Assembly: GCF_009914755.1 (NCBI RefSeq)
Contig: NC_060933.1
DNA: 64,000 bases
Origin: the human T2T-CHM13v2.0 reference genome, Homo sapiens
Reading direction: 5' to 3' (one strand)
Of the stretch, positions 45,801 through 51,800 are shown in pieces. Numbering within the stretch: position 1 is the first letter of the stretch; each line of letters opens with the position of its first letter. Made by a program: the position numbers and the translations under genes. The notes beneath the pieces are model-generated. The model had not been told where the DNA came from. It worked only from the letters and a program-made list of their open reading frames with translations, and did not search any database.

Positions 45801-48800
45801 GCTCCAGGCACCCTCTGTGGAGGTGTCATGTGTCCACCTCCCCTACTCCTGGCAGCTGCTCCTGGGGTGCCCGTTACCTCTGCCCAGGTGGTTGGGGGCA
45901 CCCAGGCCTGTGAGGGAGGCTGGTCCCATGGCCTTCCTCTTCCACCACCACCACCGGCTGCCCAGGTGGCCCCCATCGTGTCCCCAGGGAACGCTGGGCC
46001 ATGGCCACAAGGGGCTCATGGAGAGGGCAGCCTGGCTCCCTCCCAGGCCAAGGCCCGGCCGGACGACTCCTGTAAACCCAAGAGTGTCTATGAGAACTTC
46101 CGACTCTGGCAGCACTACAAGCCCCTGGCCCGGAGGCACCTTCCCCAGAGTCCTGACACTGAAGCGCTTTCCTGCTTCCTCATGTGAGTGTCCTCGGGGC
46201 GCCGGAGCTTGTCCTGCAGCTCACTCATAAAGAGGCTGCTGGATGGACAGGAGGTCACACTGTTCAGGGGAGCTTGCAGGGCGGTTGTGAGGGTGATGGG
46301 TTGTGCTATGGGAAGGTACATTTTCAGCAACATTAATCTGGCTGTGGCTCAGGACAGACTGTCAGGGGCCTCATGTCAACTGCCTGTCACTGTCCCGTGA
46401 GTCCAGCCAATCCTTAATTTTTTTTTTTTTTTTTGAGATGGACTTTCACTCTTGTTGCCCAGGCTGGAGTGCAATGGCGCGATCTCAGCTCATCACAACC
46501 TCCGCCTCCTGGGTTCAAGTGATTCTGCTGCCTCAGCTTCCTGAGTAGTTGGGATTACAGGCATGTGCCACCATGCCTGGCTAATTTTGTATTCGTAGAG
46601 ATGGGGTTTCTCCATGTTGGTCAGGCTGGTCTTGAACTCCCGACCTCAGTTGATCTGCCCGCCTCAGCCTCTCAAAGTGCTGAGATTACAGGCATGAGCC
46701 ATCATGCCCCGCCCCAATACTTACTTTCTTTTCTTTTCTTTTCTTTTTTTTTTTTTTTTTGAGATGGAGTCTCACTCTGTCGCCCAGGGTGGAGAGCAGT
46801 GGCGTGATCTCGGCTCACTGCAAGCTCTACCTCCCAGGTTCACGTCATTCTCCTGCCTCAGGCTCCCGAGTAGCTGGGACTACAGGTGCCCGCCACCATG
46901 CCCGGCTAATTTTTTTGTATTTTTAGTAGAGACGGGGTTTCACCATGTTAGCCAGGATGCTCTCAATCTCCTGCCCTGGTGATTCTCCCGCCTCGGCCTC
47001 CCAAAGTGCTGCGATTGCAGGCATGACCCACCGTGCCCGGCTTTTACTTTCAATAATTTTCACAACCATGTTTACAGAAGACCCAGGTCAGAGAGGGTTC
47101 TTGGTGTGACGTGAGCCACGGTTTGGGTTTAGGTCTTTTTTGTTTGTTTGTTTGAGATGGAGTCTCGCACTGTCACCCAGGCTGGAGTGCAATGGTGCGA
47201 TCTTGGCTCACCGCAACCTCTGCCTCCTGGGTTCAAGCAATTCTCCTGCCTCAGCCTCCCAAGTACCTGGGATTACAGGTGCCCGCCACCATGCCCGGCT
47301 AATTTTTTTGTATTTTTTAGTAGAGACGGGGTTTCACTATGTTAAGCAGGCTGGTCTTGAACTCCTGGCCTTGTGATCCACCCGCCTCAGCCTCCCAAAG
47401 TGCTGGGATTGCAGACGTGAGCCACCGCACCCACCCTGGGTTTAGGTCTTTGAGTGTACACCCCAGTGCCTTCCCTCGAACTGAGTGTCAATGGCCAGGG
47501 GCACATCACATGGGGCTGGGGGGAGGAGCTGCAGGGCCCAGCAGAAACCTGGCACACACCCACTCTTCTGCCGCGGTCCAGTTAGCACAGCGGTGGTGGA
47601 GCCTGCACAGGGGGATGGTCTTGGGACCCGCACTAGGGTCGATGCTGGGCAGGTATTAGCATCTTCACCGTCAATCCCCCCTAGAAAAAAGGACAATGGT
47701 GCTTCATTCAGAGGATGGCAAAGAGATGACTTGAACTCACATATGACATACGTAGCACAGTGCCTGGCACATACTATGACACATTACATGACAGCAATTA
47801 GGATTACTGTCCCCATTACTACCATTATCAGGACTAGGCCATCTAGGAGAGTGCTCCCCAAAGCCACGGGCTCCAGTGATAGCTCTGAGTGCACCACGAG
47901 CCCAGCAGCCCAGAGCCGTGGACTGTGGTGACTGTGAGGCAGCAACATCAGCATCTGGGAGAGTTTGTGGTTTCATTCCCAGTCCCTGCCTCTCTCCACC
48001 CCACGGCACCTCTGTGACCCTTTGTTTCCCGCTGATGAGCAAACAGGAGCTTGAGCATATCCACCGTGCAACACACTGGCCGTTCCCCTAGGGGAGTCCC
48101 CTGCCTGGGGTGTAGGTGAAGGCGGTCCCGTCTTCCTCCCCAACAGTCTCGCTGCCCCCACACCCTGGAACTGGTTGCATCCCCCCTTGGAGCGGAGTCC
48201 CGGTGCACTGGGGACCCTGATTCTTGGAGTGTAGCCGCCCCGGGCTCACAGGCCTTTGCCTTGGCTCCTGTGGGAATGTGGGAAGCTGTGCCTGGCTGCT
48301 TGCAGTGGCTTGGACACCGCTCTGCTTTGGTTCTGGACATGTGCTCCTGCTCCTCAAGCTCCAGGACCCTGAGGCTGTGTCCCCAGGGGCTGCCTTGCTC
48401 CAGAGTCCCCAGGAAGCTGGTTAAATGCTCAGTCCTGTGGCCCAGGAACCTGCACTTTAACCCTCGCTCCCAGGTCATTCTGTGTGCATGGTGTCTCAGT
48501 CAGCTCAGGCTCTGCCGTAACGAATCCCATAGACTGGGTGCTTTATCAAGACACATTCATGTCTCCCAGTTCCAGAGGCCAGAAGTCCCAGATCAAGGTG
48601 ACAGCGGATTGGGTGTCTGGTCAGGGCCCTCTTCCTGGCTGGAGAGAGCTGCCTCTGGCTGTGTGCTCTTGTGGCTGAGAGCAAGAGCCCTGGTGTCTCC
48701 TCCTGCCCTTATCAGAGCTCGGATTCCATGACTGGGACCCACGCTCATGACCTGCTCTAACCCTGATTGCCTCCAAATACTGACACACTGGCACTGAGGG

Positions 48801-51800
48801 CTTCAACACAGGAATGTTGGGGACACACATGTTCCACCCATAGCACTGAGTTCACTTGTCAACATCATAACACCGAGGACTTGAGGGGCAGTCGGAGAGG
48901 CCACTCAGTGGCTTCTGTTGATGTTGGATCTTGGGGGTGTGTCCTGGAGGCTGAGGAGCCCACATGGGGGAGAACAGGACAGGGACAGATGGCAGGACAG
49001 GTGTGGGGAGGACAGGAGCCAGGTGTTGGGACCAGGTGGGCCCGGGATGGAGGGTGGGCTTACAGACTGGGACTGACTGCACTGGTTTACAGCCCAGTTC
49101 TCCGATCCCTGGCCCGGCGGAAGCCCACCATGACGCTGGAGGAGGGACTGTGGCGGGCCATGCGGGAATGGCAGCACACGAGCAACTTTGACCGGATGAT
49201 TTTCTACGAGATGGCGGCAAAGTGAGTCTGGGGTCCTGGGGGCAGGGCCCGTGTGGCGGGGTGAGAGTGAATGACAGAGGCCCGGTGGCCGTGGTGGCTT
49301 CTCAGCGTGGAGCATGAGGAGGGTGTGGACAAACACAGGACGCCCTGGGCCCCTGGCTCCCTCAGGAAGCTGCTCCTGCCACCTAGAGTGCTCTGGGGTC
49401 TCTGTCCCGCCCTCTTGGGAAGCACCCCCTGCCTGGCCTGGGGCCAACCGCTGCCTTGACACTGGGGGTCATGGCGGGAGCAGCCAGCATCGCAGCCCAA
49501 AGGGGGTCTCCTCCAGCTGTGGGGATGGGAAGAAGGGGCGCTAGTGACTAAAGACAGAGTGGGGGGCAGGCTCCTCACAGCAGTGGCCGGAAGTCGGTTT
49601 TCTCCCATCCCAGCCTGGCCAGGGAGTTGGGTCAGGGGAGACCTGTACCTGGGACACCATGAGACCCCTCTCTGGCCTGACTGCCTTTGCTCCTGGGCAG
49701 AACCGTCCGTGAAGACAGACAGACAGCAGCCTCAGGGGAAACGGGCCCTGTCCTCTGGGCTCAGCTTTTGCTTCCTCCTGACCAGGGGTCTCCCGGGCCT
49801 CGTGTCCCTGGGTTATCCTTCAGGGGCCCACAGTCCCAGCCTCAGGACTCCTGCATCTGGGCATCATCCCTGACGCCTTCTGCCATCAACCCCACCCCCG
49901 GCCAGCTGATACCTGGAGGAGGGGTTCCCGGGACCCTCCTGGACCTCGTGGCCCTGACTTGAGTCAGGAAGCCCCATTGATGCCATGGGCTCTGCAGGGG
50001 CCGGGTGAGGGAGGGTGAGCCCAGAACTCTGGGAGCAGCTCCCTCCTGGGACTGGGGGATGGGTCCCAGTGAGGGCCTAGACAGCCCGCCGGAGGCACTC
50101 CCTCCCATCCCTGCCCTCGGCTGCTGCCTGGTCCTGGGGGGAGGGGGCCTGGACCCTCTCAGCACAGCCTGGGCCTCCTTCACCCCCAGGTTCCTGGAGT
50201 TTGAGGCTGAGGAGGAGATGCAGATTCAGAAATCGCAGTGGATGAAGGGGCCCCAGAGCCTGCCTCCTCCAGCCCCGCCGAGGCTTGAACCTCGAGGACC
50301 CCCTGCCCCTGAGGTGGTCAAGCAGCCAGGTACAGCTTCCCACATTCCCACAGGAGCCATGGCAAAGGCCAAAGGGGCCAAGGGAGGCCACTGTCCCCAC
50401 ATCCCATGCTTCCCTTCAAGAGGGGGATTTGCTCCCTCCAACAGGACAGCTTCCGGGACTGTATGTTGGGTATTGACCAGGTCAATACCTACTTCATGGG
50501 TGGCCCGTGATCACGAAGCAGGGTATTGACCGGGCCAAGTTTCCTACTTTCTCTCTCCCCTTGCCTGTCCAAAACTCCACATATGCTCTGCCCAGGAAGC
50601 AGAGATGAGCCGGGAGAGTACACGGCATATCGGTGGCTCCAAACTTCCTCCCAAGCGATGCTGTCTCAGATGTGCCCCTCCTGCGGCGTCTCCTCCGGGG
50701 CGCTGTGGTTCAGGTGGTCCTGACCCAGCTGGGACCCACTTCACATCCCCAAGCCCTGCCCTCCCCTGTGTGGTGCAGGCAGGAGGAGCGGCCCTCACCA
50801 CACCCATCCTCCTCCCTCTCTGCCTCAGTGTACCTTCCCAGCAAGGATGGCCCCAAGGCCCCGACTGCCTGCCTGCCACCACCCAGGCCCCAGAGGCCAG
50901 CGGAGACCAAGGCCCACCTGCCACCACCCAGGCCCCCGAGGCCAGCAGAGACCAAGGTCCCTGAGGAGATCCCCCCTGAAGTGGTGCAGGAGTATGTGGA
51001 CATCATGGAGGAGCTGCTGGGGTCTCACCCTGGGGACACAGGGGAGCCTGAGGGACAACGGGAAAAGGGCAAAGTGGAGCAGCCGCAGGAAGAGGACGGG
51101 ATGACCTCAGACCCGGGCCTCCTGAGCTACATTGACAAGCTGTGTTCCCAGGAAGACTTTGTCACCAAGGTGGGCTTGCCTGGAGTGCTGTGGTCTGTAG
51201 GATTCCAGGGGGTGGCACTTCCAGGTCCTTGGAATTAAGCTCTGTTCCTTAGCTACTCAGTAGTATGTGTATTTCCATGGATTTGAGTGTCTGTGTATGT
51301 GACTGTGTGTGTCTGTGTGTTGCTGTGTGTTTGTGTCTGTGATTTGTTACTGTGTCTTTGTGTGTCTGTGTGGGTGTGGGTGTGAGTCTGGAGTGTGTAT
51401 GTTACCTGTGTCTGTCTTTTCCTGTGTTGTACATGGGTCTGTGTGTCTGTGTGTGGTTTGTGTGTCTCTGTATGTGTGTATGCTATGAGGTCTGTGGTCT
51501 GTGCGTGTAGCTGGTGGTCGCCATGATATGAAACAGCCCCAGGAGGGTGGGAATGGGGCCCTCCCTGCTTTCTGCATCTCCTCCGGGTGTCCTTGGCTCC
51601 AGGTTACTCCCTCCCCAGGAAGTTCACACCTTCTTCCTTCTGTTTCCAGGTGGAGGCCGTCATTCACCCCCGATTCCTGGAAGAATTGCTTTCCCCAGAT
51701 CCACAGATGGATTTCTTGGCCCTAAGCCAGGAGCTGGAGCAGGAGGAAGGACTCACCCTTGCCCAGGTAGAGCAGCAGAGGGAGGGGAACCCAGGTACTC

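What the first reader, a model, noticed from the sequence alone, without database searches (positions are those of the whole stretch)
48170..50370. Built-in antisense element: an inverted copy of NUTM2G exon 4 in intron 2 is complementary to the exon-4 splice donor
Seen: 48251-48302 is the reverse complement of 50319-50370 (last 11 nt of exon 4 plus first 41 nt of intron 4) at 50/52 positions. One mismatch becomes a G-U wobble opposite the U of the GU donor, so 51/52 positions can pair in the pre-mRNA. The adjacent part of the inverted copy (48338-48368; reads [10 protein letters not shown] vs [10 protein letters not shown]) is only 24/31 identical to the exon-4 5' end, and weak intron-4 similarity continues to ~48170. 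So the duplication looks old, yet the donor-covering segment is nearly undiverged. Inference: gene conversion or selection maintains a non-Alu duplex that hides the U1 site and loops out exon 3. Predicted outcomes are intron-4 retention (stop at 50527-50529), skipping of exon 4 (140 nt) or exons 3+4 (269 nt), both frameshifting, or an exon-3 circle. This could be a cis splice/NMD switch for the NUTM2 family.
Basis: partly seen in the sequence, partly recalled or inferred. Interest (0 to 1): 0.8.

Follow-up and report, generated by a model that had tools for sequence, protein, structure and literature searches.

The report
Inverted exon-4 copy in NUTM2G intron
A 52-base stretch in intron 2 of NUTM2G really is the near-perfect mirror image of the exon-4 splice donor, but comparison with its human sister genes points to a DNA copying accident, not a selected splicing switch.

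Summary
Window 48251-48302 is the reverse complement of 50319-50370 at 50 of 52 positions, and 51 of 52 can pair in RNA. It is not a dispersed repeat: the genome holds it only as two arms in each of seven NUTM2 copies. NUTM1 has no such copy.

An older inverted copy of the exon-4 acceptor and first 31 bases lies at 48338-48377 (31/40; 0 of 1000 shuffles reach it). The claimed similarity down to 48170 is not supported (344 of 1000).

The predicted duplex is very stable: -126.4 kcal/mol in the chr9 copies and about -105 in the chr10 copies.

The paralogs do not support selection. The chr9 and chr10 clades differ by 8 events in the two arms, against 7.9 expected from introns. No pair shows a compensatory change. 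Seven of the eight differences lie on the donor-covering part.

That part is degraded in all five chr10 copies, four of which keep a perfect 32-bp intronic core.

Best reading: arm-to-arm DNA copying (template switching or short gene conversion), probably twice.

An effect on splicing in NUTM2F/G is plausible but untested.

The parts
48251..48302 (+). Arm 1: intron-2 inverted copy of the exon-4/intron-4 junction. In the pre-mRNA it is antisense to the exon-4 donor.
   Evidence: 50/52 complementary to 50319-50370. Present in all 7 human NUTM2 copies. Absent from NUTM1.
50319..50370 (+). Arm 2: last 11 nt of exon 4, the GU donor (50330-50331) and intron 4 positions +1 to +41.
   Evidence: with the exon end taken from the hub annotation. 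Homologous to the NUTM1 exon-4/intron-4 junction (77.7% over 193 nt).
48338..48377 (+). Older, diverged inverted copy of the intron-3 acceptor and the first 31 nt of exon 4.
   Evidence: 31/40 to 50181-50220; 0 of 1000 dinucleotide shuffles reach the score. It carries the NUTM2-type C and the NUTM2-type length rather than the NUTM1 type.
50181..50220 (+). Source of the older inverted copy: acceptor plus the 5' end of exon 4.
48283..48294 (+). Cluster of five chr9-versus-chr10 differences in arm 1, two of them 1-nt indels. The chr9 version is the reverse complement of arm 2.
   Evidence: Windows with >=5 events and >=2 indels: 8 of 3958. No other template for the chr10 version within 6.6 kb.
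50339..50370 (+). 32-nt intronic core (+10 to +41). Its duplex with 48251-48282 is perfect in four chr10 copies, has one wobble in the chr10 51.5 Mb copy, and is 31/32 in the chr9 copies.
49093..49221 (+). Exon 3 (129 nt), which lies in the 2016-nt loop between the arms.
   Evidence: Hub annotation.
50190..50329 (+). Exon 4 (140 nt). Its donor is CAG|GTACAG in the chr9 copies and CAG|GTATGG in the chr10 copies.
   Evidence: Hub annotation.
50527..50529 (+). First in-frame stop (TGA) if intron 4 is retained.

Best explanation
The element is a relic of DNA-level copying between two inverted segments of the same gene. It does not look like a selected RNA switch.

Inferred history:
1. After NUTM2 split from NUTM1, part of the exon-4 region (acceptor, exon, start of intron 4) was copied in reverse into intron 2. 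Most of that copy has decayed; 31/40 remains at 48338-48377 and the middle is unalignable.
2. Before the chr9 and chr10 paralog clades split, a sharply bounded tract was re-copied from one arm to the other. The mechanism would be replication template switching between quasi-palindromic arms, or a short gene-conversion tract. This left at least a perfect 32-nt core.
3. In the lineage of the chr9 copies (NUTM2F/G), a second tract of 12-41 nt was probably re-copied over the donor-proximal part, giving today's 50/52.
4. Since then the arms have drifted at the intronic rate.

Shown here: the anatomy, the distribution among paralogs, the divergence counts and the predicted duplex energies.

Inferred: the direction and number of copying events. 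No outgroup species was available.

Consequence for the RNA (inferred, untested): the NUTM2G/F pre-mRNA can form a 52-bp duplex that buries a weak donor, GUACAG without +5G, and loops out exon 3 and most of exon 4. If it forms in vivo it should lower use of that donor, giving intron-4 retention or skipping of exons 3+4, and attract ADAR. This would be a side effect rather than a maintained function.
For: - Real and unique. 50/52. Genome-wide the 251-nt query hits only 14 places, two arms in each of 7 NUTM2 copies.
- NUTM2-specific. The 17.1-kb NUTM1 region has no inverted copy of its own junction (best minus-strand hit E = 0.09; within intron 2, E = 0.23).
- Sharp edges of identity and an unalignable middle. 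The flank beyond 48250 is not significant (344/1000).
- No constraint since the clade split. Arm 1 has 6 events (21.6% of intronic 52-nt windows have >=6). Arm 2 has 2 events (27.5% have <=2). The intronic mean is 3.96.
- No compensatory change in 52 pairs over 7 paralogs. Of 9 varying or mismatched pairs, 4 are one-sided wobbles and 5 are breaks.
- Seven of the 8 clade differences lie between exon -3 and intron +9.
- The arm-1 cluster holds 2 of only 19 short indels in 5601 aligned columns. The chr9 state equals the reverse complement of arm 2. That is the footprint described for template-switch mutations (PMC5453318 passages; PMC8794818 abstract).
- The duplex is predicted to be stable: -126.4 kcal/mol for chr9, and -105.6, -104.8 and -103.7 for chr10. 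In a 2301-nt fold, 50 of 52 arm-2 bases pair with arm 1, and blocking arm 1 costs 94.2 kcal/mol.
Against: - The 32-nt core shows only 1 clade difference in 64 nt (arm 1 has 1, arm 2 has 0). Background 32-nt windows have <=1 event in 32.1% of cases and 0 events in 10.9%. Weak constraint on the core is therefore not excluded.
- In chr10 the bases CAGGU of the donor can still pair, so donor masking is weakened there, not abolished.
- Clusters of >=5 events per 19 nt are not rare in these introns (12 places, 3.5% of windows). Independent decay in chr10 from a perfect 52-nt ancestor remains possible.
- Template switches described in print are mostly short-range. The arms here are 2 kb apart, and 52 nt is short for classical gene conversion (the latter recalled, not tested).
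- No outgroup genome and no RNA data were available.
Confidence: 0.6

Rival explanations
1. The duplex is a selected cis-acting switch. By hiding the U1 site of exon 4 and looping out exon 3 it tunes productive versus NMD-targeted splicing of NUTM2 genes, and selection (with or without conversion) keeps the donor-covering arm intact.
For: - Very stable predicted duplex placed exactly over a weak donor.
- All 7 paralogs keep both arms and at least a 32-bp core, perfect in four of the five chr10 copies.
- The core has 1 clade difference in 64 nt.
- 4 of 7 substitutions keep a wobble pair.
- Exons looped out by stable complementary regions have lower inclusion genome-wide (PMC8052449 passages).
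Against: - 0 of 52 pairs co-vary.
- Total arm divergence is 8 events against 7.9 expected.
- The donor-covering part is the most variable part and is broken by two bulges and two mismatches in all five chr10 copies.
- The element is absent from NUTM1.
- With one substitution in three expected to keep pairing (my own estimate), 4 of 7 wobble-keeping substitutions is not unusual.
- RefSeq lists no exon-3/4-skipped or intron-4-retained NUTM2G transcript (hub table).
- No paper links NUTM2 to such an element (listings).
Confidence: 0.13
2. One copying event only. The two arms were a perfect 52-nt pair at the chr9/chr10 split, and everything since is independent point mutation. The chr10 arm 1 simply took five hits and there was no second conversion in chr9.
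For: - Parsimony with arm 2 as reference puts most chr10 arm-1 states as derived.
- Total events match the neutral expectation.
- Clusters of >=5 events per 19 nt occur at 12 places in these introns.
Against: - Two 1-nt indels within 12 nt, when only 19 short indels occur in 5601 columns.
- Only 8 of 3958 windows have >=5 events with >=2 indels.
- All five events fall in 12 nt while the adjacent 32 nt of the same arm took none in chr10.
Confidence: 0.2
3. The duplex matters as double-stranded RNA rather than as a splice mask. It would be an ADAR substrate, or a source of small RNAs in testis, where NUTM2 transcripts are piRNA targets.
For: - A 52-bp near-perfect duplex is predicted.
- NUTM2-family mRNAs show piRNA coverage with ping-pong signatures in pig and human testis (PMC4423968 passages).
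Against: - Only 11 nt of the well-matched arm are exonic, so small RNAs from arm 1 could hardly target mature mRNA.
- The exon-like part is only 31/40 identical.
- There is no evolutionary signal and no data on editing or small RNAs at these coordinates.
Confidence: 0.05

Closest known systems
Long-range complementary regions in human pre-mRNAs that loop out exons or occlude splice sites (PCCR catalogue, PMC8052449; RIC-seq-based structures outside conserved regions, PMC10691357; ATE1, PMC7797038)
   Same: Two complementary segments within one pre-mRNA, about 2 kb apart, with a stable predicted duplex. One arm lies over a splice site and an exon sits in the loop. In the catalogue, looped-out exons have lower inclusion.
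   Different: Those catalogue entries are defined by conservation, compensatory changes or cross-link evidence. Here there is no co-variation and no constraint, and the arms are a recent self-copy of the gene's own exon-intron junction. For PMC7797038 only the search listing was seen.
Template-switch mutations that create or perfect inverted repeats (four-point model, PMC5453318; maintenance of RNA hairpins, PMC8794818)
   Same: A cluster of substitutions and indels between close relatives is explained by one reverse-complement copy of nearby sequence. An imperfect inverted repeat becomes a near-perfect one, and apparent 'maintenance' of a stem arises without selection.
   Different: Published events are mostly tens of bases and local to a replication fork. 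Here the template lies 2 kb away and the tract is 12-52 nt. The ancestral state is not established for lack of an outgroup.
Complementary-sequence-mediated exon circularisation (inverted Alu or non-repetitive flanking repeats; recalled, no paper read here)
   Same: Inverted repeats bracket exons 3-4 and would bring the exon-3 acceptor and the exon-4 donor together.
   Different: The downstream arm covers the donor itself, so it should block the back-splice it would otherwise favour.

Membership tests
Functional long-range pre-mRNA structure (conserved complementary regions) | Two regions of one pre-mRNA with a stable predicted duplex | tested here: met
   -126.4 kcal/mol for the arms plus 10-11 nt on each side. 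50 of 52 bases paired in the 2301-nt MFE; blocking arm 1 costs 94.2 kcal/mol.
Functional long-range pre-mRNA structure (conserved complementary regions) | Conservation of both arms and/or compensatory substitutions among homologues | tested here: not met
   0 of 52 pairs have a double-sided change among 7 paralogs. Arm divergence is 8 events against 7.9 expected. Absent from NUTM1. Other species were not available.
Functional long-range pre-mRNA structure (conserved complementary regions) | In vivo contact, or a splicing change when an arm is mutated | not testable with these tools
   No RNA-seq, RIC-seq or editing data were at hand.
Template-switch / quasi-palindrome correction mutation | A clustered multi-base difference between close relatives that equals the reverse complement of nearby sequence | tested here: met
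   At 48283-48294 there are 5 differences including 2 indels. The chr9 state equals the reverse complement of arm 2 apart from one later transition. No alternative template for the chr10 state was found in 6.6 kb.
Template-switch / quasi-palindrome correction mutation | Polarity established by an outgroup | not testable with these tools
   All 7 copies fall into two clades. NUTM1 lacks arm 1. No other primate genome was held.
Template-switch / quasi-palindrome correction mutation | Template close by, within one replication fork | tested here: inconclusive
   The arms are 2016 nt apart. Published cases are described as local (passages only).
Dispersed repeat (Alu or other transposon) pair | Many copies genome-wide | tested here: not met
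   Only 14 matches in the whole assembly, all in NUTM2 copies. The other inverted pairs in the gene are Alu-like apart from one weak pair at 73%.
Inverted-repeat-driven circular RNA locus | Complementary arms in the introns flanking the circularised exons, with both splice sites left free | tested here: not met
   The downstream arm overlaps the exon-4 donor, from exon position -11 to intron position +41. Back-splice reads were not testable.

The most novel reading that the evidence does not exclude
Repeated arm-to-arm DNA copying acts as a self-renewing generator of an antisense mask over the exon-4 donor. In NUTM2F/G the latest refresh gave a 52-bp duplex over a donor that has also lost its +5G (GUACAG against GUAUGG in the chr10 copies). 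These two genes would then be splice-limited and yield mainly intron-4-retained or exon-3/4-skipped, NMD-prone RNA, unless a helicase or ADAR opens the duplex in testis. Editing of the paired +5 A to inosine would even restore a G-like +5 (my speculation). That would be a paralogue-specific, structure-gated expression switch born from a mutational mechanism rather than from selection.
Probability: 0.12. Interest if true: 0.6.

Novelty: new member of a known kind. Interest (0 to 1): 0.3.

Why it matters
If the duplex forms in vivo, it is a clean natural example of a non-Alu, exon-derived antisense element sitting on a 5' splice site. It comes with a built-in comparison: the chr9 copies are fully masked and the chr10 copies partly masked.

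It also illustrates how template switching or short conversion between inverted arms can mimic 'conservation' of an RNA stem. That is a caution for structure screens in segmental duplications.

As it stands it is an ordinary mutational relic in a poorly understood testis gene family, with no evidence of function.

Tried and rejected
- Dispersed repeat: rejected, 14 genome hits, all in NUTM2 copies.
- Ancient element shared with NUTM1: rejected.
- Homology extending to 48170: rejected (344/1000).
- Known RNA family at the arms: none. Rfam at E <= 1 gave three weak hits elsewhere in 47400-51200, all far below their gathering scores.
- An alternative nearby template for the chr10 version of arm 1: none in 6.6 kb, no shared 9- to 11-mers on either strand.
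- The permissive gapped alignment was too loose to interpret (null mean 54.6, score without the core 82.7). I replaced it with the shuffle tests.
- Whether 48322-48337 is ancestral intron 2 (collinear with NUTM1 intron 2) or a remnant of the middle of exon 4 stays unresolved.
- Earlier findings of this scan were not open.
- Literature searches for NUTM2G; NUTM2 + circRNA; NUTM2 + inverted repeat; and NUTM2 + intron retention gave 16, 55 (12 listed), 1 and 6 papers. None describes this element, judged from listings and from passages in two of them.
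Full report
**1. The observation**

The repeat finder on 47000-52000 reports arms 48251-48302 and 50319-50370. 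They are 52 nt, 96% complementary and 2016 nt apart. A strict local alignment gives the same 50/52 block with nothing attached.

A 40-nt piece of arm 2, allowing 3 mismatches, occurs only at these two places in the 64-kb window. None of 100 dinucleotide shuffles gave two matches.

With the hub's exon end at 50329, arm 2 is the last 11 nt of exon 4 plus intron 4 positions +1 to +41. The mismatch opposite the U of the GU donor is a G at 48290, a wobble. The other mismatch is U.U at 48261/50360.

- Exon 4 is 140 nt and exon 3 is 129 nt.
- The first in-frame stop in a retained intron 4 is TGA at 50527-50529.

**2. How far the inverted copy reaches**

The reverse complement of 48338-48377 matches 50181-50220 at 31/40. 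That target is the CAG acceptor plus the first 31 nt of exon 4. None of 1000 dinucleotide shuffles reach the score.

In a joint alignment this older piece has the NUTM2-type base and the NUTM2-type length, not the NUTM1 type. It was therefore copied after NUTM2 split from NUTM1.

Other parts of the region:
- The 35 nt between this piece and the core do not align convincingly to the 98 nt of the middle of exon 4.
- On the other side, rc(48130-48250) against 50371-50560 is no better than chance (344 of 1000). The claimed similarity down to 48170 is not supported.
- Identity stops abruptly at both ends of the 52 nt.
- 48322-48454 is collinear, in forward orientation, with NUTM1 intron 2 (0 of 1000 shuffles). 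This marks roughly where ancestral intron 2 resumes.

**3. Where else it occurs**

The window's own assembly could be searched. A 251-nt query around arm 1 finds 14 places. They are the two arms in each of seven NUTM2 copies:
- two on contig 9: the window's NUTM2G, and a copy at 106.49 Mb on the minus strand;
- five on contig 10: at 88.24, 88.11, 80.71, 80.57 and 51.5 Mb.

So this is not a dispersed repeat. Within 42000-57000 the arm pair is the only high-identity inverted pair that is not Alu-like.

NUTM1 on contig 15 has homologues of exons 3 and 4. The 17.1 kb fetched there holds no inverted copy of its own exon-4 junction. The best minus-strand hit has E = 0.09, and within intron 2 the best has E = 0.23.

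**4. What the paralogues say**

A MAFFT alignment of 6.6 kb from all seven copies gives two clades:
- The chr9 and chr10 clades are about 93% identical to each other.
- The two chr9 copies are 98.8% identical.
- The chr10 copies are 98.1-99.9% identical among themselves.

Divergence was measured between the window and the 88.24-Mb copy. Substitutions and short indels were each counted as one event:
- Intronic 52-nt windows carry 3.96 events on average.
- Arm 1 carries 6 events; 21.6% of windows have that many or more.
- Arm 2 carries 2 events; 27.5% of windows have that few or fewer.
- The sum is 8, against 7.9 expected.

The pair-by-pair table over seven copies gives 9 of 52 pairs that vary or mismatch:
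- None has a change on both sides.
- Four are one-sided transitions that keep a G.U wobble (intron +2, +4, +5, +14).
- Five break the pair: two 1-nt gaps, A.G and C.U in the chr10 copies, and U.U in the chr9 copies.

Seven of the eight clade differences lie between exon position -3 and intron position +9, which is on the donor itself.

Positions +10 to +41 form a 32-bp duplex. It is perfect in four chr10 copies, has one wobble in the fifth, and is 31/32 in the chr9 copies.

The part that should matter most for a U1 mask is therefore the least stable in evolution. The full mask is a peculiarity of the two chr9 genes.

**5. One copying event or two**

The five arm-1 differences at 48283-48294 include two 1-nt indels. 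Across 5601 aligned columns there are only 19 short indels. Only 8 of 3958 intronic 19-nt windows have at least 5 events with at least 2 indels. Clusters of at least 5 events of any kind are not rare, however: 12 places, 3.5% of windows.

The chr9 state is the reverse complement of arm 2 apart from one transition. The chr10 state has no other template within 6.6 kb.

I therefore favour a second re-copying of 12-41 nt in the chr9 lineage over five independent hits in chr10. Without an outgroup this is inference.

In either case an earlier event is needed. The core is perfect while the exon-like flank is only 31/40. An intronic pair as old as that flank should by then be far more diverged. For comparison, the NUTM1 and NUTM2 intron-4 alignment is about 61% identical.

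The exon-4 donor differs between clades, GTACAG in chr9 and GTATGG in chr10. NUTM1 has GTGAGG. This fits two decays of an ancestral CpG, which is my inference.

**6. Mechanism of origin**

A cluster of changes that turns an imperfect inverted repeat into a near-perfect one is the published footprint of template-switch mutation:
- PMC5453318, passages read.
- PMC8794818, abstract read: such events 'create and maintain' stems without selection.

Short-tract gene conversion between the arms is the alternative at the DNA level.

Two points count against a textbook fit. The 2-kb spacing is larger than the local events described in print. The tract is also short for homologous conversion; this second point is recalled, not tested.

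**7. What the RNA could do**

Duplex energies were computed for the arms plus 10-11 nt on each side:
- -126.4 kcal/mol in both chr9 copies.
- -105.6, -105.6, -104.8, -104.8 and -103.7 kcal/mol in the chr10 copies.
- In the chr10 copies CAGGU still pairs, but a bulge and two internal loops follow.

In a fold of 48150-50450 (2301 nt), 50 of 52 arm-2 bases pair with arm 1. Forbidding arm 1 costs 94.2 kcal/mol.

These are equilibrium predictions. Kinetics, proteins and co-transcriptional splicing are not modelled.

Genome-wide, exons looped out by stable complementary regions have lower inclusion (PMC8052449, passages). An effect on NUTM2F/G splicing is therefore plausible. I put it at roughly one in three that a measurable effect exists, and at about one in eight that it is a maintained function.

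A circle of exons 3+4 would need the very donor that the duplex covers.

**8. Comparison and novelty**

In working principle this belongs with long-range complementary regions in pre-mRNAs. It fails the membership feature of conservation or co-variation.

In origin it fits template-switch or conversion events, with the caveats above.

No paper in the library describes it:
- The searches were judged from listings.
- Passages were read only in PMC4423968 and PMC7450558.
- The RIC-seq catalogue supplements could not be opened.

**Verdict**

The feature is real. It is a new member of a known kind, most likely non-adaptive, and of modest interest.

Noticed in passing
window 44025-44340 versus 46450-47443: Several inverted Alu-like pairs (61-189 nt, 81-92% complementary) lie in intron 1 and intron 2 and so bracket exon 2 (45487-46183). 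This is the classical arrangement for exon circularisation, and they could compete with the arm pair.
   Followed up: no
window 50330-50335; L016-L020: The exon-4 donor is GTACAG in both chr9 copies, GTATGG in all five chr10 copies and GTGAGG in NUTM1. This fits two independent decays of an ancestral CpG. The chr9 genes lack the +5 G.
   Followed up: partly
L020 (G000:C10:51526753-51533353): A seventh NUTM2 copy at contig 10, 51.5 Mb. It has A instead of G at the first base of exon 4 and a C-to-T change in arm 2 (intron +14). It is 98.1% identical to the other chr10 copies. I did not identify which named gene or pseudogene it is.
   Followed up: no
window 48322-48454: This stretch is collinear in forward orientation with NUTM1 intron 2 (139 aligned columns, 63% identity, 0 of 1000 shuffles). 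Its first 15 nt lie between the two inverted pieces, so their ancestry is ambiguous.
   Followed up: partly
window 48290-48369, minus strand: Read on the minus strand, the inverted copy looks like a pseudo-exon: a CAG acceptor, 77 nt, and a GC in place of the GT donor. It lies about 700 nt upstream of the alternative ZNF782 first exon at 47549-47571 (hub table). Whether any antisense transcript uses it is unknown.
   Followed up: no
literature, PMC4423968: NUTM2-family mRNAs are reported as piRNA targets with ping-pong signatures in pig and human testis, with annotated antisense lncRNAs for NUTM2A/B/D. Passages only were read.
   Followed up: partly
window 50770-50813, minus strand: Weak Rfam match to ovine_lenti_FSE (29.3 bits against a gathering score of 45, E = 0.0064) in intron 4. 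It is below threshold and most likely chance.
   Followed up: no
window 48257-48264 and 50357-50364: The chr10 arms contain the self-complementary octamer GCCATGGC. The chr9 arm 1 has GCCTTGGC, which is the single U.U mismatch in the core.
   Followed up: no
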